NCBI GenBank assembly: GCA_964514565.1 | Contig: CAZERA010000001.1 | Location: 310,001-374,000, forward strand | Reading direction: 5' to 3' | DNA length: 64,000 nt | Origin: an uncultured Candidatus Peribacteria bacterium | Lineage (GTDB): Bacteria; Patescibacteriota; Gracilibacteria; RBG-16-42-10 | Shown: piece by piece, positions 33,001 through 42,000 of the stretch | How the letters are laid out: each line of letters begins with the position of its first letter | Numbering within the stretch: the stretch's first letter is position 1 | Position numbers: made by a program

Positions 33001-36000
33001 CCCAAAAGTTTCTTTACTTTTGCTCCGTCGGTTCCCCATTGAGTTAAATCAACGCCGTTTGCACGTAAACACTCAGCAAGCTCTTCCAGGGAAGAAACTT
33101 GTATCGGTGTTTCTATAATTTCAATTGCCATAAATAGTAAGTTGAAAAATTAGAGAGGCTTCTGACAATCACTTTTAGCAAAAGATCAGGAAAGTAACCT
33201 AGCACTCTTGAAATAGTTTAACAAGAAGTGTGTTTAAGCTGATGCCAATGAAATAGTTTCTGGATCAAATAACCGAGTTGAGAATGGGGGATGATCATTA
33301 CGTTGATTCAAGGTTCTTAGCACAGTTGGCCATCTAGTACCTTCAGGTTGATTCATAGCTCTTAAAACATCATTCCACATTACTGTCGGTGGAGGCACAA
33401 TACCTAATCTTCTTAGAATGGCTCTGGGAGCCTCTCTATATTTATAAATCTCAGCGAATCCAAAGCGATCTATCCATTCAGTGGACGAAGAACTTTTTGG
33501 AATTAACACTGTATCGATATAGCGATCAATCGTATTTCTAGGTAAGCCCCAGCGTCTGGTTTCATCAGATAGAAGAATATCTCTGCGAAGATTGTAGGGC
33601 AGCAAATGCCGTCTGTTTAAATAATCACGCAATTGTTCTCGTTCAGCTAGATCTATATCCCAATCAAAAGTATTAGTATTTTCCAAACCAATTGTTCTAA
33701 TCTTTTCTTGGCGCTCTCTTTCTTTGACCTCGTCTGGATGCGCTCGCAAACTTAAACCTAACTTGCGTCGAGTGTCAGTTTTTAAGGCCAATTGATAAAT
33801 CAAATTGAAATCTTTTACTGCAAAAAGCCGCTTTTTATCAACATTGAATACCTTACTGATTTGGTCTAGTTCTCTTAAATAGCGCGCATTATTGGCTAGG
33901 TCTTCTTCAAGATCCTCTATTATTCCTTCAGCAGTTCCATCATTAGTGTCCTCAAGCAGTCTTTCTAGAGTTTGTCCGTCAGGTCCCAAGTTGTTTAAAG
34001 CTGTATTTCGGCGTTCGTGCAAAGATAAGTAATCTAGTGTTTGCCTGAATTTCCCCGCTTGGTTACCAGAAATAGCTAAATCCTCAGCTCTTTCCAGATC
34101 ATATGGCCCATCTCTTAATAGTCTATATCTTCGTTCGAAGATATCTTCTGCAGCAAATACTTGTTCCCACCACCCCTGCCATCTGGGGTCAGTACGAGCA
34201 GGTAGCCGACGATGATTAGATATACCCCAAAAAAGCATCTTGTCTCGTAATTCGGTCTCGGCTGTTAATGAGTTTGTCCTATTCTTACGAGAGAGGGCAA
34301 TGAATTCTTTCTCTGTTATATAAAGATATCGAGCTTCTCGTCTAATGTACTTTCTTTGTTCTGCAGCCAAAATATCAGCGTAGCTTTTTCTCCGCGATAA
34401 TCGGAGTGCCTCCCATTTCCAGCGATATAATTTTTCTGGTGGAGGAGCAGGTTCGAATGTCTGTAATTCAATTTCGAGTTGGGTCTTAAGATCCATAAAA
34501 GCATGCAAGTGTTTATGTTTAAACCATTGCATGGCATTCTGTCAATGGGTGGCTAAGTAATCAAATACTTCTTCAAGGAAAGCAGATTAGAAAGTTGTAG
34601 ACAATGGACTTCAGGATTAGGAATGGAGATATTAACTAATAAACATGGAATCATCAGTTCTTTCGGCACCCAATAGTCAGATTTCTCTCTGTCACCTATA
34701 TAAAGAAATTGTTCAGGCCTGAGCTCTGGATAACATTTCAACCATGCTCGATACGCACTTCCATCGCTTTTACCTACTTCGCCAGTGATAACTTGATCAA
34801 ATAGACCTAAAGGAATATTTAATTTCTTTAACTTTTTTTCAGCAATAGGTCGAATGGAACCAGTAATCAAATCAACATGTTTATACTTTTGTTTCAATTT
34901 ATTCAGTAATTCTAATACCTCGCCATTTGGTAGCAAGAATTCAGCAATGTCAGCATTTTCCAATGCTTCTTGTACTACTTCTTTTGGATTAGGAATGCCT
35001 AAGCTAGTGAGAGTCTGACTACCGCTCAATCCTTTACCACTTTGATAGAGATCAGTGAATAGTTTGCGTGCCGCAGCTAGATCGCATCCTTTATGTTGTG
35101 CAATCTTTTCATAAATGTAGCCTTGAATAGCTTCATCAATCTTAGGCGATTTAGGATACAAAGTCTGATCTAAATCAAAACCGATTACTTCAATTCCTGT
35201 GAAGTCAGTAGAACTAATAAGCGACATAGAAAAGGGTAAGAGCTCCCAATGGATAGTTGAGTGTCTGAGCGTATTGAGTGGCAATATAATTGAGCAAGTT
35301 TTGATCTTCGGCACGGTGATCAAGTGTGCGATTAGCAAACACAGCTGTCATGTGAAGCTTTTTGCCCATAACATTGGCCTGTAAGAATACTAAGCAATCA
35401 CTTTGTGGATCATCTTCCTTGGCATGATAGCTACTGATCAGTGGATTGTTGTGATTGATGCCTTTTTCTTTGAGATAGGTAATCGCTTTTTGTAATACAT
35501 TTTGGCCACGATAATTTTCTAAACGGGCTAGAAATGGGTGATCAGGTTTTGTGCTGTTTTCAATAAGATCGCTGTAGATGTATGCCAATCCATTGCTGGT
35601 TTGTGGTGCTTTTACATTGTCGCCTAATAAGTAAGGCCCAATATGAGTATCAGGGGACTCTACGGGTTTAGAAGGTTCAGCTAAAAGCTTCTTGGTACGT
35701 TGTTCTTCAGTGAGCAGCAAAATATTGGCACGGCTTGAAAGCATAAACATATCTCCCATTGGACACTTGAGCGCGTCTAATACTGTTTGTACATAAGCAT
35801 CATAAAGACCAAAAATATTCTCTGGATATGCATTGACTGTGTTGTGAGCACGGGCGATATGGAATGAATAGAGCTTGCCATCTTGTACCCAAAATATGTC
35901 ATGCGTCAGACAAGGATCATGGGAGAATTCCATTTTGTTGGTCTCCGGATTGAGCCAACTACTCATGTCTTCTGCTGGATCAAAACGTTGAACAATCGTC

Positions 36001-39000: not shown

Positions 39001-42000
39001 TTGTAAGTGTGTTTTTCCACAATGGGGGGCAACACATGAAAGTCCCCGCGTTCTGGCCAATGATACTTTACAGCGCATTGGAGATCATTGATTTGGAGAT
39101 TGTTTTTACGTAAAAAACTATCTACCTCAGCCATGATATCTAACTGATTTTGGTAGATAGTTGGTTGGCTGGTGAAAAGATTGAAAGATTTTTTATTGGG
39201 CAAAACCACTTGAGGAGGAGCTCCAACAGAAGTAGGAGGAAAGATCTGAGCAAGGGAATATTTGACTGCACCATAAGGATGGATCGGCCCTCCACGCACA
39301 TTATAGACACCAGCAAAAACTATTTTTTGCAGTGACTGATAGAGGCTGGCAAGTGAGATCTCTTTTATGATGGAAATATTGCTCATAGTGCTGAAATAAA
39401 ATTAACAGCTAACAGCACCATTGAATAAACAGTCCCAATTGGCAGCAGTGCCATTGAGCTTGATTTGGTACGTAGTGATAGTGGGGAATTGTAAGATTGT
39501 TTGTTTCATTTGTTCTTGAATGCGAGGATTGTCACACACACCACCGATCATGATTGTGCCCGAAAGATCGATGTCAGCATGTGTACCAGTAATGGTGACG
39601 CTATTTACGGTGAAGTTGTTTTGATAAAGAGCTGTAGTCAGACCAGACATGCCATAAGCCCTCGTGTGCACACTCATTAGTTCCTCAATCGCAGTCTTGA
39701 GAGGTGTTGTGGTACTAACACTGCGGTTGACCATCTCAATTTCGTCTCCACAACCAAACGTGGTTGCACTAGGAGTACCGATCTCATTTACTAGAGCAAT
39801 TTGTACTGTAGTAGTGGTGGCAGCAGTAGCACTTGGTGTGGGAGCTACTGTCATGCTGACAGGGGACGAGCTAGGTGTTGCTGTAGTCATGGGAGCAATA
39901 GTGACATTACAGCCAGTCAGTAGTAGTCCGGCGCTGATGATAGTGAGAAGTTTTTTCATGATTTTTTAGAGCTAAAGCTGCTGGTATTGTGGTGGTAGTG
40001 CGGCTAAAAAGCAAGATATAAATTGGAGCTCAACTCCACTTCAGCCTCTCACTATCGGGTATTCGTTTCTCCAAGAAACTAGTAATACGTGCTGGCACGA
40101 TACGATTATTAAACGTTTTTATGACTTGATCGCGTTGTCTAGCTATTGCTGCACGGTAAAGTGGTGCTATTCTCGCATTTCTTAACCAGCCATCAATGCC
40201 AGAACATAAAACAAATGCCGGTATGGTGTTAGTGAAAGCTTTATCTATATACCACTTGGGTAGTTGATTAGTTGATTCAGGAAATGCCTCGTCACAATCA
40301 TTACCAGAAAATAGTCGAGACTCGCCTACATTTTGGATAATGCTAGTCAGTACATCAATTGGCAGTAAAACATCCAATCTGCCATTACTGTCAGTAGGTA
40401 ATAATACGCGACTCAGACTTGCACGTATTTGGTTTCGTTCTTCTTCAGTAAAACGTTGGATCTCGGTATAGGTAGAGATGGGAAAATCTCCTTCTGTCAT
40501 TAATGCAGCTAAATTCTCATCTGCTTCACTCCCCCTTGTGCATCGTGATTGGAAATCAATTGTATCCATAGCTATAAAACTACGGATAAAATCGCGACAA
40601 TCACTTGATGAAAAGTCTACATGTGCCGGTGTGCTCTGCTCTGACGTTACTTTACTTTTCCAATCTAGAAAATGGCGAGAAGGTGTACTCACAAAAAATA
40701 GTTAGGAGAATAATCTATGCTGCCCAAGTCACAAAATCAACCAATTATATGTGCATACCTATTTACTGTTTCTTATTTCAATATTTGCTACATTGGTGGT
40801 GATCCTATCTTTGATAATCTCTAGTATGCTTATGCCTGGTTCCAAGTTTTCTTATTGGTTAAAAGGGCTCATGATAGTTGATATGGTTGGTTTAATTGTT
40901 GCTGCTATTTGGTTTGTCCATATCCAACAATTCTTAACAACAGCAGTTAAGACCACTGGTCATATTAGTGCCATAGTGACTGAAGTCGATGGGGAGGGGG
41001 ATCTGACCTATACTCCAGAAATTGAGTTTCAAGATCAGCATGGGAAAATTTATCGATTTCGTACAATTGTCAGCGGCAACGAACATGAGCGGCAAGTGGG
41101 CGAGCAGGTACCTGTGGTTTATGATCCCCAAAATGCGACCAATGCTAGTGTTGATACCTTAGTAGAGCTGTACCTTGGTGTATTTGCTTTATCGTTAGTG
41201 TCTCTAGTACTACTTCTTGCTGGCTTGATTGCTGGATGGCTACTCAATAAAGAAGAAAAACGAAAGTTAGATTTGGTCAATAATGGCCAAAGGATTACTG
41301 CCAGTATTGTGGATATTCTTCACCTGACTTCTATTAAGCGTCGCGGGCAGTCTCCTTGGATGGTAATAGCTACTTGGACCAACCCTCTAGATAGTAAAAA
41401 GTATGATTTTTCCAGTGAGTCAGTATGGTTTGATCCAAAGCAGTATTTAGGAGCAGGGAGAGTGAATGTTTACATTGATCCAAGTAATCCTGACCAATAT
41501 TTCATGGAAATTCCTCAGCCATTTGATGGAGAAGGTAACTAGACTGTTTAGTTAGTTCCAAATGTTCTTTGTCCTTTTCCTTTAGCTTTAGCCGGCTCAG
41601 CTACTCGTTGTGTTTTGTTCCAAGTTGCAATAAATACTTCGCGATGTTCACCCAAAGCTTGTTTGAATCTTTTTAAAAGTTCAGGTGTATTTAGAATAGT
41701 AGTGAGCTCTAGGCAGAGGGTGTATACAGTACTAAAATCACTGATATCAGTGTCTAGTATCCATTCTAAATAATTTTCTATAATACTTGGTTGGAAAAGA
41801 TACTTGCTTGCTACGTCCATCAATAATTGTGGGAAAAGATCATTGTTATTGGCAGCTTCTATGATCTCCAACAAGATTTGAATTGGAAGATAATCTGCTA
41901 AAACATTTTCGCTATTGATTGGAAGTAATACTGAGCGAATGTCCTGTCGAATTGCCGTACGCTCAGTAGTAGTCAATGTACAAATCGCTTCATATGCTTC

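What a model noticed while it worked through the whole genome (the two positions that open the first line are those of the whole stretch)
34553..39386. Four-gene module around an MtrA-fold/thymidylate-synthase-fold fusion stands in for ThyA and ThyX
This genome has neither ThyA nor ThyX but carries a conserved operon g00302-g00301-g00300-g00299: a DGxHR (ParB/Srx-like) protein, a two-domain cytidine-deaminase-fold protein, an 802-aa protein that joins an MtrA-fold domain to a thymidylate-synthase-fold domain, and a HAD phosphatase; the same operon occurs in only 45 of 185,579 species genomes, nearly all labelled CPR bacteria or DPANN archaea, and those genomes almost always lack ThyA and ThyX. 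I read the module as a third, non-orthologous route to thymidylate (phosphorylation by the ParB/Srx-fold protein, C->U deamination, then C5 one-carbon transfer to dUMP by the TS-fold domain with a cofactor held by the MtrA-fold domain), passed bet [...]
Evidence so far: Own DNA, six frames: no Thy1/ThyX and no Thymidylat_synt hit at E<=0.01; pfam.tsv also lacks dUTPase, dCMP deaminase, DHFR and thymidine kinase, while two dTMP kinases (g00032, g00033), class II RNR, SHMT and FolD are present. g00300: AF2 on 25 rows pLDDT 83.6, pTM 0.76; VIA-align: residues 424-655 match TS-fold enzymes (9iqc Z 19.5; ThyA 3ix6 Z 17.2; CMP hydroxymethylase MilA 5jnh Z 16.8; T4 dCMP hydroxymethylase Z 14.0) and residues 6-205 match cobalamin-binding MtrA (5laa Z 15.8, rmsd 2.2, 152 of 159 residues; next fold Z 8.2); phmmer to MtrA 8q3v E 4e-4. 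Invariant in 25 homologs: HDPC571 (nucleophile Cys as in ThyA PCH), R591 (+20, = R166 of E. coli ThyA) and N602 (+31, = N177, the uraci [...]
(Added by a program. Inside this text positions count along the whole contig: contig position 310,001 is position 1 of the stretch shown here. "Call 12" and the like, gene names such as g00115 and contig names such as C1 are that model's own, and its searches are not shown. The text may have been shortened before it was handed on; [...] marks where a part breaks off. The agent that wrote the report below was given it as the finding of a first reader that could run no searches.)

Follow-up and report, generated by a model that had tools for sequence, protein, structure and literature searches.

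The report
Four-gene stand-in for thymidylate synthase
A tightly packed four-gene operon built around a very unusual relative of thymidylate synthase is found in about fifty tiny symbiotic bacteria and archaea that lack both known enzymes for making the DNA base thymine, so it most likely supplies that base by a variant route that has never been studied.

Summary
Four overlapping minus-strand genes at 34553-39386 encode a DGxHR ParB/Srx-like protein, a two-domain cytidine-deaminase-like protein, an 802-aa multi-domain protein with a thymidylate-synthase (TS) fold, and a HAD pyrimidine-nucleotidase-like protein. The same order recurs in 41 of 52 related loci from CPR bacteria and DPANN archaea.

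Among 31 genomes of the same class, every genome has exactly one of four options: this module (6), a 485-492-aa relative (3), canonical ThyA (12) or ThyX (10). A DPANN replicate gives the same pattern. In sister genomes the shorter relative sits in the same syntenic slot.

So the module very probably stands in for ThyA/ThyX. It is not a non-homologous "third route". The catalytic domain is a divergent ThyA-superfamily member, closest to methanogen-type TS. It belongs to a wider, unstudied family of MtrA-like + TS + PterinBD(DUF4346) fusions.

New here:
- two DUF4346-like domains in the 802-aa protein;
- a degenerate second TS-like domain at its C-terminus;
- loss of several ThyA substrate-binding residues;
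- near-absence of DHFR from module genomes (1 of 50);
- frequent dUTPase, SHMT and Nudix neighbours.

The product (dTMP or 5-hydroxymethyl-dUMP) and the roles of the three partner proteins remain inferred.

The parts
38490..39386 (-). g1: 298-aa ParB/Srx-like protein with an invariant DGSHR motif (D205, G206, H208, R209). Putative phosphotransferase or nucleotide-binding enzyme.
   Evidence: Pfam Parb-CE, 25.4 bits against a cut-off of 23. Invariant columns in 27 sequences. AF2 pLDDT 84.4. The nine best VIA matches are all ParB/Srx-fold proteins but weak: sulfiredoxin Z 5.7, serine kinase SerK 4.9, SbnI 4.6. Foldseek found none at E<=0.001.
37609..38484 (-). g2: 291-aa two-domain cytidine-deaminase-fold protein. 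The C-terminal domain keeps the zinc and catalytic motif (H206, E208, C241, C244, R245/Q246). The N-terminal domain is degenerate.
   Evidence: NCBIfam hits only to cytidine (nucleoside) deaminase models, best TIGR01354 at 4.3e-8. PF00383 scores 22.6 bits, below the cut-off of 25. Invariant columns in 24 sequences. Weak similarity between the two halves.
35214..37622 (-). g3: 802-aa multi-domain protein, the core of the module.
   Evidence: 178 cluster representatives at E<=0.001, the best 120 listed at 51-96% identity.
37008..37622 (-). g3 residues 1-205: MtrA-like Rossmann-type domain. Phe90 stands where MtrA has its cobalt ligand His84.
   Evidence: VIA 5laa_B Z 13.5, rmsd 2.5, 147 aligned; next fold Z 8.1. 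Profile against PDB MtrA at 1.7e-3, with the alignment placing H84 opposite F90 and E54 opposite position 60. The same Phe in the distant 800-900-aa relatives.
36714..36929 (-). g3 residues ~232-303: first, divergent DUF4346-like (PterinBD) unit.
   Evidence: hhalign against the C-terminal DUF4346 domain of the 482-aa type: probability 80%, E 1.3e-5.
36387..36647 (-). g3 residues ~326-412: PterinBD-DUF4346 domain.
   Evidence: hhalign probability 97%, E 1.2e-10. PF14251 hit on the g2-g3 fusion P0130 at the equivalent place, 26.7 bits, below the cut-off of 29.6.
35658..36353 (-). g3 residues 424-655: catalytic TS-fold domain. The nucleophile Cys571 is encoded at 35910-35912. Y514, R591 and N602 are kept. 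The ThyA RR pair, S167, D169, H207 and Y209 are replaced.
   Evidence: VIA 9iqc Z 18.5, MilA 15.9, ThyA 15.9. TIGR03283 at 1.5e-14. MAFFT alignment with two CPR ThyA sequences, phage enzymes and the 482-aa type. Invariant columns.
35223..35537 (-). g3 residues ~696-800: degenerate second TS-core domain without the catalytic Cys or Arg. Possibly an internal mimic of the dimer partner.
   Evidence: hhalign of the C-terminal alignment against a TS-domain profile built without g3 rows: probability 96.5-97.4%, E 9.5e-10 to 9e-12 over 98-108 columns. Against g3's own TS domain alone only 2.5%. Atlas feature hits to small, largely viral clusters with PF00303 on 12-17% of members.
34553..35227 (-). 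g4: HAD-superfamily phosphatase, pyrimidine 5'-nucleotidase-like. The longest ORF reaches a TTG at 35338; the likely start is Met38.
   Evidence: PF00702, 43 bits against a cut-off of 26.4. TIGR01993 at 4.8e-11 and YjjG at 3.1e-5. Median homolog length 222 aa.
32535..33131 (-). Nudix-hydrolase-like gene (198 aa), an accessory neighbour of the module in 14 of 53 loci, this window included.
   Evidence: Clustering. 12 of 14 members match PF00293, best 6.2e-7; the window's own copy scores 18.2 bits, below the cut-off of 21.1. Profile against PDB: MutT/nudix 2.2e-4, CTP pyrophosphohydrolase 7e-4.
33234..34532 (-). 432-aa ORF of unknown family between g4 and the Nudix gene. Whether it belongs to the module is unknown.
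   Evidence: No Pfam or PHROG match. It did not join any of the 25 largest clusters.

Best explanation
The operon is this organism's route to thymidylate.

Shown:
- The four genes are real, tightly packed, and conserved as a unit.
- Genomes that carry them lack ThyA and ThyX, while their close relatives carry exactly one of those or a shorter homolog of g3.
- g3 has a TS-fold domain that keeps the nucleophilic Cys (C571), the C5-proton Tyr (Y514), the phosphate Arg (R591) and the uracil-reading Asn (N602).

Inferred pathway:
- dUMP is made from cytosine compounds by g2, a nucleoside-type cytidine deaminase, helped by g4 (a pyrimidine 5'-nucleotidase giving the nucleoside) and g1 (a ParB/Srx-fold phosphotransferase returning dU to dUMP).
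- In many genomes a neighbouring dUTPase or Nudix pyrophosphatase also contributes.
- Cys571 of g3 adds to C6 of the uracil ring, and a one-carbon unit from SHMT-made methylene-tetrahydrofolate is transferred to C5.
- The pterin is probably held by the DUF4346 domains rather than by the usual ThyA folate site.
- DHFR is almost always missing. The reduction to a methyl group is therefore probably not paid for by oxidising the folate to dihydrofolate, unlike in ThyA. The reductant and any cofactor of the MtrA-like domain are unknown.
- The degenerate C-terminal TS-like domain probably replaces the second subunit of the ThyA dimer.
For: Conservation. 41 of 52 loci have g1-g2-g3-g4 in order.

Fused forms. 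g2-g3 (P0130, E 2e-45 to g2) and g3-g4 (P0131, E 2e-61 to g4) exist.

Phyletic pattern:
- Canonical ThyA or ThyX passes the cut-off in 3 of 50 module genomes: a G025 ThyA fragment, and ThyX in G023 and G028. The other two PF00303 hits over cut-off are a TS+methyltransferase fusion (G005) and g3 itself (G015).
- Of 200 sampled Patescibacteria at least 80% complete, 84 have near-full-length ThyA, 74 have ThyX, and 174 have some PF00303 or Thy1 match.
- Among 31 same-class genomes: module 6, 485-492-aa homolog 3, ThyA 12, ThyX 10. There are no overlaps and none is empty. Both states occur inside two genera.
- Among 26 DPANN genomes: 3 module genomes have neither enzyme; 22 of the 23 others have ThyA-family or ThyX.

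Same syntenic slot. In G254 and G255 the 482-aa MtrA+TS+PterinBD gene lies between the same flanking genes as the module.

Neighbours. dUTPase in 19, SHMT in 15 and Nudix in 14 of 53 loci.

Own genome. It has SHMT and two thymidylate kinases but no dUTPase, dCMP deaminase, TK, dNK over cut-off, DHFR or MTHFR.

DHFR. Present in 12 of 12 ThyA relatives but over cut-off in only 1 of 50 module genomes.

Catalytic residues and fold..

TK. Present in a congener that carries the module (G251), which fits a thymine-using cell.
Against: - No enzymology exists for any member.
- g3 fails the curated cut-offs of every TS model: PF00303 16.1 against 24.3 bits; TIGR03283 54 against 174.55.
- It has lost residues that ThyA uses for the 5'-phosphate (RR becomes K/A), the folate (D169 becomes N594) and the 3'-OH of deoxyribose (H207 becomes N633, Y209 becomes L635). 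The phage enzymes and the 482-aa type keep H and Y. The substrate may therefore not be plain dUMP.
- A nucleotidase and a putative kinase in one operon are not needed for a simple dUMP-to-dTMP step.
- The same four enzyme classes make up the phage pathway that replaces T by hydroxymethyl-U (PMC8989533, introduction, read as passages).
- The best phage matches of the TS domain include an enzyme annotated as deoxyuridylate hydroxymethyltransferase.
- The module genomes are MAGs; completeness was not reported for those reached through loci.
- Kin are not independent, so the counts overstate the number of events.
- The fused forms come from single metagenome contigs and could be frameshift artefacts.
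Confidence: 0.55

Rival explanations
1. The module replaces thymine rather than making it. g3 is a dUMP hydroxymethylase, g2 supplies dUMP, g1 phosphorylates the new nucleotide, and g4 is a dTMP nucleotidase that keeps thymine out. The DNA of these cells would then carry 5-hydroxymethyluracil, or a derivative, instead of T, as in SPO1 and phi-e phages.
For: - The phage pathway consists of a TS-homolog hydroxymethylase, a dCMP deaminase, a dNMP kinase, a dTMPase and a dTTPase (PMC8989533, introduction). The module has one gene of each of the first four classes.
- Lack of ThyA, ThyX and DHFR is expected, because hydroxymethylation does not oxidise folate.
- The best phage hit is annotated as a deoxyuridylate hydroxymethyltransferase (phiRSL1, 2e-7). 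Others lie in Pseudomonas siphophages that I recall as relatives of phage M6.
- MilA, a hydroxymethylase, matches the fold as well as ThyA does, both at Z 15.9.
Against: - A congener with the module has thymidine kinase (G251).
- Species of one genus would differ in DNA chemistry (G254 against G256, G255 against G257).
- g2 is of the nucleoside type, not the dCMP type.
- g1 is not a P-loop dNMP kinase.
- g1 has no phage homolog by tblastn.
- The phage hydroxymethylases keep the H..Y motif that g3 has lost.
- No cellular organism is known to replace T fully (my own knowledge).
Confidence: 0.15
2. g3 is chemically an ordinary ThyA-type enzyme that oxidises tetrahydrofolate to dihydrofolate. An unrecognised reductase regenerates the folate: the MtrA-like domain, a divergent DHFR-like or RibD_C-like protein, or an SDR. 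The other three genes are only a cytidine-to-dUMP salvage branch.
For: - Cys, Tyr, Arg and Asn of the ThyA mechanism are kept.
- Weak DHFR-like matches occur in genomes with the 482-aa type: G254 at 1.1e-8 and G255 at 9.8e-8. They also occur in 4 of 50 module genomes at E<=1e-3.
- SHMT is a frequent neighbour.
Against: - DHFR passes the cut-off in only 1 of 50 module genomes, against 12 of 12 ThyA relatives.
- The folate-contact Asp is Asn in all 25 sequences.
- Pterin-binding-type domains have been added.
Confidence: 0.15
3. The module has nothing to do with the DNA thymine supply. It would make or recycle some other C5-modified pyrimidine, such as a nucleoside natural product, an RNA or cofactor precursor, or a detoxification product. 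The carriers would lack ThyA/ThyX because they take thymidylate from their hosts.
For: - TS-fold enzymes also serve nucleoside-antibiotic pathways (MilA) and a flavin monooxygenase (9iqc), both top fold matches.
- 26 of 200 sampled Patescibacteria also lack both enzymes, so loss can be tolerated.
- The substrate-binding residues are altered.
Against: - The either/or pattern with ThyA, ThyX and the 482-aa homolog holds in two unrelated groups.
- The same syntenic slot is used.
- dUTPase and SHMT are neighbours.
- The own genome has no TK or dNK, so thymidine salvage has no known kinase.
- Secondary metabolism is unlikely to be kept in genomes of 0.4-1.4 Mb.
Confidence: 0.1

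Closest known systems
Methanogen-type thymidylate synthase (NCBIfam TIGR03283, short ThyA-superfamily form)
   Same: It is the best-scoring curated family for g3 (1.5e-14, residues 492-607). Both have a short TS core without the long ThyA inserts, and both keep the catalytic Cys.
   Different: g3 scores 54 bits against a cut-off of 174.55. It carries four extra domains and always sits with three partner genes. It occurs in CPR bacteria and DPANN archaea, not methanogens.
Classical ThyA (PF00303)
   Same: Same fold (Z 15.9). The Cys-to-Arg (+20) and Cys-to-Asn (+31) spacings are the same. The Tyr of the YG motif is kept.
   Different: - Below the Pfam cut-off.
- The RR pair, S167, D169, H207 and Y209 are replaced (E. 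coli numbering recalled).
- No DHFR partner.
- A fused degenerate TS-like domain takes the place of a second subunit.
482-aa MtrA + TS + PterinBD(DUF4346) fusion proteins of CPR bacteria and archaea (uncharacterised)
   Same: They use the same three domain types. They are mutually exclusive with ThyA/ThyX in the relatives searched. They occupy the same genomic slot in sister genomes.
   Different: - The domain order differs: TS comes before DUF4346.
- There is one DUF4346 domain and no second TS-like domain.
- The ThyA-like SRR, RSxD and SAHIY motifs are kept.
- The partners differ: a dCMP_cyt_deam_1 protein, two HIT proteins, a cytidylyltransferase-like protein and an aminotransferase.
- Only about 20-28% identical to g3.
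MtrA, corrinoid-binding subunit of methyl-H4MPT:CoM methyltransferase (PDB 5laa, 8q3v)
   Same: Fold match at Z 13.5 over 147 of 159 residues. Homology is bridged by the 482-aa type at 8.4e-14.
   Different: The cobalt ligand His84 is Phe90. Its partner Glu54 and most of the GAIPF/Y-x-EN motif are not kept (residues named in PMC4915002, passages read). Archaeal fusions such as P0164, P0167 and P0184 keep the Gly-His.
Phage thymine-replacement pathway (SPO1, phi-e): dUMP hydroxymethylase, dCMP deaminase, dNMP kinase, dTMPase
   Same: The module has one gene of each of these enzyme classes around a TS homolog (PMC8989533).
   Different: It is cellular, not viral. The kinase candidate has a ParB/Srx fold. 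The deaminase is of the nucleoside type. No product is known.

Membership tests
ThyA (Pfam PF00303 Thymidylat_synt) | Score over the curated gathering threshold | tested here: not met
   16.1 bits against 24.3, E 0.0065. A few homologs in the family carry a precomputed PF00303 hit.
ThyA (Pfam PF00303 Thymidylat_synt) | TS fold with the nucleophilic Cys in a Pro-Cys motif, Arg at +20 and Asn at +31 | tested here: met
   VIA Z 15.9 to ThyA 3ix6 and 6auj. P570, C571, R591 and N602 are invariant in 25 sequences.
ThyA (Pfam PF00303 Thymidylat_synt) | Arg-Arg pair (SRR), Ser167, Asp169, His207 and Tyr209 (E. coli numbering, recalled) | tested here: not met
   Alignment with two CPR ThyA sequences: SRR becomes NKA, RSAD becomes RAHN, AHLY becomes ANIL. 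N594 is invariant.
ThyA (Pfam PF00303 Thymidylat_synt) | Genomic coupling with dihydrofolate reductase | tested here: not met
   DHFR_1 over cut-off in 1 of 50 module genomes, against 12 of 12 ThyA-bearing relatives.
Methanogen-type TS (TIGR03283) | Score over the curated equivalog cut-off | tested here: not met
   54 bits against 174.55. It is nevertheless the best TS model.
MtrA (PF04208) | MtrA fold | tested here: met
   5laa_B Z 13.5, rmsd 2.5, 147 aligned; next unrelated fold 8.1.
MtrA (PF04208) | Cobalt-ligating His84 with Glu54 (PMC4915002), and the Pfam threshold | tested here: not met
   His84 aligns with invariant Phe90, and Glu54 with position 60 (Asn or Ser). Pfam 13.9 bits against 25.
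PterinBD-DUF4346 (PF14251) | Profile match to the domain | tested here: inconclusive
   hhalign to an in-session profile of the 482-aa type's domain gives 97% (residues 326-412) and 80% (residues 232-303). The Pfam model itself gave no hit on P0003, and 26.7 bits against a cut-off of 29.6 on homolog P0130.
ParB/Srx superfamily (g1; Pfam Parb-CE PF24392) | DGxHR-type motif and a family score over the cut-off | tested here: met
   D205, G206, H208 and R209 are invariant in 27 sequences. 25.4 bits against 23.
ParB/Srx superfamily (g1; Pfam Parb-CE PF24392) | ParB/Srx fold | tested here: inconclusive
   The top nine VIA rows are all ParB/Srx proteins, but Z is only 3.9-5.7 over 80-100 residues. 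Foldseek found nothing at E<=0.001.
Cytidine deaminase (g2; PF00383, TIGR01354) | H-A-E and C-x-x-C zinc and catalytic motifs | tested here: met
   H206, E208, C241 and C244 are invariant in 24 sequences.
Cytidine deaminase (g2; PF00383, TIGR01354) | Curated score cut-offs | tested here: not met
   PF00383 22.6 against 25 bits. TIGR01354 33.5 against 113.65.
HAD phosphatase (g4; PF00702) | Score over the cut-off and the DxD nucleophile motif | tested here: met
   43 bits against 26.4. The sequence reads FDLDQT near the start.
Phage hydroxymethyl-U pathway (SPO1 / phi-e type) | The TS homolog makes 5-hydroxymethyl-dUMP, and thymine is excluded from DNA | not testable with these tools
   It needs enzyme assays or DNA nucleoside analysis. 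Enzyme classes match. TK in one module genome argues mildly against it.

The most novel reading that the evidence does not exclude
About fifty lineages of ultra-small CPR bacteria and DPANN archaea do not make thymidylate at all. The horizontally mobile four-gene cassette gives them the phage-style programme: deaminase, dUMP hydroxymethylase, nucleotide kinase and dTMP nucleotidase. Their chromosomal DNA would then carry 5-hydroxymethyluracil, or a derivative, in place of thymine. They would be the first cellular organisms with a fully substituted canonical base.
Probability: 0.13. Interest if true: 0.97.

Novelty: new variant of a known kind. Interest (0 to 1): 0.78.

Why it matters
Thymidylate synthesis is thought to rest on two enzymes, ThyA and ThyX. 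Genomes with neither are usually written off as incomplete or host-dependent. The findings here change that picture in four ways:

- Such a gap in CPR and DPANN genomes is filled, gene for gene and slot for slot, by an unstudied branch of the ThyA superfamily fused to MtrA-like and pterin-binding-type domains.
- A broader sister family appears to be the only TS candidate in roughly 7% of sampled Patescibacteria.
- The lack of DHFR and the altered substrate site predict chemistry that differs from ThyA: another reductant, another form of the substrate, or hydroxymethylation.
- Either outcome is directly testable by thyA complementation and a simple in vitro assay.

The result bears on three wider questions: how reduced symbionts obtain DNA precursors, gene transfer between CPR and DPANN, and the evolution of the TS fold, including a fused pseudo-dimer.

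Tried and rejected
- Literature. The terms were: DUF4346 (0 papers); MtrA + thymidylate synthase + fusion (1 irrelevant); thymidylate synthase + Patescibacteria; MtrA/cobalamin; thymidylate synthase + tetrahydromethanopterin + archaea; 9IQC (0); ParB-CE (only centromere papers); dUMP hydroxymethylase terms; thymidylate synthase + DPANN; six phrases for a 'novel/third' TS. Subscription journals are not covered.
- The search of earlier findings was not open.
- g1 against PDB sequences: nothing below E 0.16. g1 against phage genomes by tblastn: no match. PHROGs for g1: none.
- A corrinoid methyl-transfer mechanism (methyl-folate to cobalt to dUMP) was considered for this family and set aside. The His84 and Glu54 equivalents are lost and the own genome has no MTHFR. 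It stays open for the archaeal fusions that keep Gly-His.
- C-terminal domain as a third DUF4346 copy: no match.
- Promoter and terminator scan of 32000-41000: fewer promoter-like sites than in shuffles (10 against 22) and nothing that delimits the operon.
- Complex prediction, sequencing-run and read-laying tools were not used. No claim of physical binding or of expression is made.

Full report
**1. What is in the sequence**

Between 34553 and 39386 the minus strand carries four ORFs:
- g1: 38490-39386, 298 aa.
- g2: 37609-38484, 291 aa.
- g3: 35214-37622, 802 aa.
- g4: 34553-35338. Its likely start is Met38 at base 35227, giving 224 aa; the median homolog is 222 aa.

The genes are separated by 5 nt or overlap by 14 nt. 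A promoter and terminator scan gave nothing useful.

Family scans give the following:
- g1: Parb-CE (PF24392), 25.4 bits against a cut-off of 23.
- g2: only nucleoside cytidine-deaminase models, best TIGR01354 at 4.3e-8. PF00383 scores just under its cut-off.
- g3: methanogen-type thymidylate synthase TIGR03283 at 1.5e-14 (residues 492-607), with weak PF00303 (0.0065) and MtrA (0.043) hits.
- g4: HAD hydrolase at 43 bits, closest to pyrimidine 5'-nucleotidase TIGR01993 (4.8e-11) and to YjjG.

All four are conserved genes. g3 has 178 cluster representatives at E<=0.001, the 120 listed being 51-96% identical over the full length. Alignments of 25 g3, 27 g1 and 24 g2 sequences have 63%, 61% and 47% mean column identity.

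**2. The module is conserved as a unit**

A scan of one genome per species found 52 loci encoding a g3 relative. They are labelled Peribacteria/Gracilibacteria, Paceibacterota, Saccharibacteria and other CPR groups, and Woesearchaeota, Nanoarchaeia and Iainarchaeum. Three MAG labels do not fit (two Gammaproteobacteria, one Methanosarcinales). In the tree, the one Gammaproteobacteria-labelled row that was included and the Methanosarcinales-labelled row sit among Patescibacteria or Woesearchaeota rows.

By tblastn, 41 of 52 loci have g1-g2-g3-g4 in that order on one strand. Of the other 11:
- 9 are cut by a contig end beside the missing gene.
- L014 lacks g4.
- L047 lacks g1 and g2.

Two loci have one extra gene between g2 and g3.

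The representative library also holds fused forms:
- P0130 (1111 aa) is g2 joined to g3 (36% identity to g2, E 2e-45).
- P0131 (981 aa) is g3 joined to g4 (53% identity to g4, E 2e-61).

Each comes from a single metagenome contig. Because the genes overlap, a frameshift artefact cannot be excluded.

Clustering of all ORFs in the 53 loci shows recurrent neighbours:
- dUTPase in 19 loci.
- Serine hydroxymethyltransferase in 15 loci. With dUTPase it is usually divergently placed just upstream of g1.
- A roughly 190-aa protein in 14 loci, this window included (32535-33131).

The names dUTPase and SHMT rest on my reading of the representative sequences, not on a family scan. The roughly 190-aa protein is a Nudix hydrolase. 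12 of 14 members match PF00293, best 6.2e-7, and the profile matches CTP pyrophosphohydrolase in the PDB at 7e-4.

**3. Does it stand in for ThyA and ThyX?**

Own genome (1.12 Mb, 7 contigs, 92.66% complete):
- Six-frame searches find no ThyA or ThyX at E<=1.
- There is no dUTPase, dCMP/cytidine deaminase, thymidine kinase or DHFR at E<=0.1.
- There is no MTHFR at E<=0.01. The only dNK matches, below cut-off, lie on the two thymidylate-kinase genes.
- Two tandem thymidylate-kinase genes and SHMT are present.

Fifty module genomes:
- PF00303 passes its cut-off in 3. These are a 130-aa ThyA fragment (G025), a TS-like + SAM-methyltransferase fusion (G005), and g3 itself (G015).
- Thy1 passes its cut-off in 2 (G023, G028), with one weak fragment (G022).

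Background, 200 Patescibacteria at least 80% complete:
- 104 have a PF00303 match. 84 are near-full-length ThyA. 20 have only a partial TS-domain match, 15 of them in 474-597-aa frames.
- 74 have ThyX.
- 4 genomes have both. In all four the PF00303 match is the partial type.
- So 174 of 200 have one or the other.
- One of these genomes (G200) is flagged unpublished. It changes the ThyA tally by one.

The sharper test uses kin. Among G000 and 30 relatives of its class:

| State | Genomes | Which |
|---|---|---|
| Module (g3) | 6 | G000, G251, G252, G253, G256, G257; all one family |
| TS domain in a 485-492-aa frame | 3 | G254, G255, G263 |
| Canonical ThyA | 12 | |
| ThyX | 10 | |

That is 31 of 31 with exactly one state. 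Two genera contain both the module state and the 485-aa state.

An independent replicate around the DPANN genome G041, 26 genomes in all:
- 3 module genomes have neither enzyme.
- 22 of the 23 others have a PF00303 or Thy1 match.
- G283, flagged unpublished, is one of those 22.

Kin share history, so these counts show a clean pattern, not a probability.

Position adds to this. In G254 and G255, the genes that flank the module in this window are the Mur-ligase, PALP, ATP-grasp and 213-aa genes on one side and the Germane-domain gene on the other. There they flank a different insert that ends with a 482-aa MtrA + Thymidylat_synt + PterinBD-DUF4346 gene.

**4. What g3 is**

- Residues 424-655 match the TS fold: 9iqc Z 18.5, MilA 15.9, ThyA 15.9, T4 dCMP hydroxymethylase 12.1.
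- Residues 10-205 match MtrA: 5laa Z 13.5, next fold 8.1.

The exhaustive representative search shows that g3 is not alone:
- Distant 800-900-aa relatives at 26-27% identity (P0149, P0156 and others).
- Many 460-530-aa proteins that Pfam reads as MtrA + Thymidylat_synt + PterinBD-DUF4346.

One such CPR protein matches PDB MtrA at 8.4e-14 and ThyA at 1.5e-9. This bridges g3 to both families. The catalytic domain is therefore a ThyA-superfamily homolog, not an analogue.

- Residues ~326-412 are a DUF4346 domain (hhalign 97%, E 1.2e-10), and residues ~232-303 are a weaker second copy (80%).
- The C-terminal ~105 residues match a TS-core profile built without g3 rows at 96.5-97.4% (E 9.5e-10 to 9e-12). 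They lack the Cys and Arg. Against g3's own TS domain alone the match was not significant.
- The MtrA cobalt ligand His84 (PMC4915002, passages read) aligns with invariant Phe90, and Glu54 is not kept. The same Phe is present in the distant 800-900-aa relatives. The His is missing from the CPR 482-aa type but kept as Gly-His in archaeal fusions P0164, P0167, P0184, P0228 and P0248.

Active-site comparison with two CPR ThyA sequences (E. coli numbers recalled):

| ThyA feature | In g3 |
|---|---|
| Y94 | kept as Y514 |
| C146 | kept as C571 |
| R166 | kept as R591 |
| N177 | kept as N602 |
| SRR | NKA |
| S167 | A592 |
| D169 | N594 (invariant) |
| H207 | N633 |
| Y209 | L635 |
| (none) | new invariant Arg, R631, beside the H207 position |

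The phage enzymes and the 482-aa type keep the H..Y motif.

I read the fused degenerate TS-like domain as a stand-in for the second subunit of the ThyA dimer. Its invariant H724-N725-N726 would fall where the partner's Arg-Arg lies. This is an inference from alignments, not from coordinates.

**5. Folate bookkeeping**

DHFR_1 results:
- Present in 12 of 12 ThyA-bearing relatives, often next to thyA.
- Present in 2 of 10 ThyX-bearing relatives, weakly.
- Present in G254 and G255 of the 482-aa type, weakly; absent from G263.
- Among the six module relatives, only G253 has it over cut-off.
- Across 50 module genomes it passes the cut-off in 1.

ThyA needs DHFR because it oxidises the folate. Module genomes behave like ThyX genomes in this respect. 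This points to a reaction that leaves tetrahydrofolate intact. That could be a separate reductant, or hydroxymethylation.

The own genome has SHMT but no MTHFR. The likely donor is therefore methylene- rather than methyl-tetrahydrofolate.

**6. The partner genes**

- g2 keeps H206/E208 and C241/C244 plus R245/Q246 in its C-terminal domain. Only nucleoside-deaminase models hit it.
- g1 has an invariant DGSHR motif and a confident model (pLDDT 84.4). Its nine best fold matches are all ParB/Srx proteins: sulfiredoxin, Atu1540, the serine kinases SerK and SbnI, PadC, ParB, Osa and KorB. All have Z of only 3.9-5.7. Kinase activity is a lead from SerK, SbnI and sulfiredoxin, not a result.
- g4 is a pyrimidine-nucleotidase-like HAD.

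A coherent but unproven chain is: dCMP or CMP to the nucleoside (g4), to the uracil nucleoside (g2), to dUMP (g1), to the C5 product (g3). dUTPase or Nudix neighbours would give a second source of dUMP.

**7. The main rival**

The phages SPO1 and phi-e replace thymine by 5-hydroxymethyluracil. They use a TS-homolog hydroxymethylase, a dCMP deaminase, a dNMP kinase, a dTMPase and a dTTPase (PMC8989533, introduction; passages read).

For this reading:
- The module has one gene of each of the first four classes.
- Hydroxymethylation needs no DHFR.
- The best phage hit of the TS domain is annotated as a deoxyuridylate hydroxymethyltransferase. Others lie in Pseudomonas siphophages.

Against it:
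- A congener with the module has thymidine kinase. TK was found in 1 of 5 module genomes and 0 of 5 non-module relatives.
- Species of one genus would differ in DNA chemistry.
- g2 is of the nucleoside type.
- g1 has no phage homolog.

I put this reading at about 0.13-0.15.

**8. Evolution**

A quick maximum-likelihood tree used 47 of the 50 g3 ORFs (those of at least 700 aa) and four distant relatives:
- All 9 archaeal rows form one clade (SH-aLRT 100).
- The Peribacteria/Gracilibacteria rows form another (99).
- With the outgroup rooting, the archaeal clade lies inside the bacterial rows, but only at support 83 and with very long outgroup branches.

One transfer between CPR and DPANN is therefore likely. 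Its direction is not settled. The careful tree search did not finish.

**9. Verdict**

The reading 'stands in for ThyA and ThyX' is well supported by phyletic pattern, gene position and neighbours.

'Non-orthologous third route' is not supported. This is a strongly remodelled branch of the ThyA superfamily with new domains and fixed partners, inside a wider unstudied family of MtrA-TS-DUF4346 fusions.

No paper describing it was found in ten full-text searches (listed under Tried and rejected). The product, the reductant, the cofactor and the partner roles are open and directly testable.

Noticed in passing
L053:8568-10016 (+), L054:9055-10503 (+), L055:4832-6280 (+); genomes G254, G255, G263: A 482-aa MtrA + Thymidylat_synt + PterinBD-DUF4346 protein is the only TS candidate in these genomes. 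TS-domain hits in 474-597-aa frames occur in 15 of 200 sampled Patescibacteria, and 13 of those 15 lack ThyX. This family seems uncharacterised.
   Followed up: partly
L053:5147-8512 and L054:6174-8982: Upstream of the 482-aa gene in sister genomes lie a cytidylyltransferase-like gene, a 273-aa dCMP_cyt_deam_1 protein with an N-terminal extension, two HIT-domain genes and an aminotransferase. This may be another nucleotide-processing cluster around a TS-like enzyme.
   Followed up: no
L056:5810-7060 (-), genome G005: A 416-aa protein joins a TS-like domain (PF00303, 5.1e-8) to a SAM-dependent methyltransferase domain (Methyltransf_11, 7e-20). It sits in a genome that also has the module.
   Followed up: no
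many genomes (for example G063:C11:53574-54875, G240:C6:31683-32957): Most ThyX matches in CPR and DPANN genomes come as two Thy1 domains inside one open frame of about 460-790 aa. This suggests tandem-fused ThyX.
   Followed up: no
G000:C1:35138-36306 (outside the window): Two adjacent Thymidylate_kin-domain genes lie in open frames of 301 and 285 aa, longer than a usual thymidylate kinase. The dNK model hits them weakly.
   Followed up: no
window 33234-34532 (-): A 432-aa ORF directly downstream of g4 has no Pfam or PHROG match.
   Followed up: partly
L006, L007, L008, L010, L022, L034, L036 (for example L022:15436-16026 -): A roughly 190-aa protein lies within 8-10 kb downstream of the module in 7 loci. 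By eye it looks like a PduO-type cob(I)alamin adenosyltransferase. This is recalled and was not scanned.
   Followed up: no
P0164, P0167, P0184, P0228, P0248 (archaeal proteins, one named Thermoprotei archaeon): Archaeal MtrA-domain proteins keep the Gly-His of the MtrA cobalt ligand. Pfam, run on P0164, P0167 and P0184 only, reads these three as MtrA-TS fusions with strong MtrA scores (E 1e-35 to 1e-42). A corrinoid-bound TS-like enzyme is conceivable there.
   Followed up: no
window 47908-50382 (-): An 824-aa protein with DUF285 repeats and an SLH domain, probably a surface protein.
   Followed up: no
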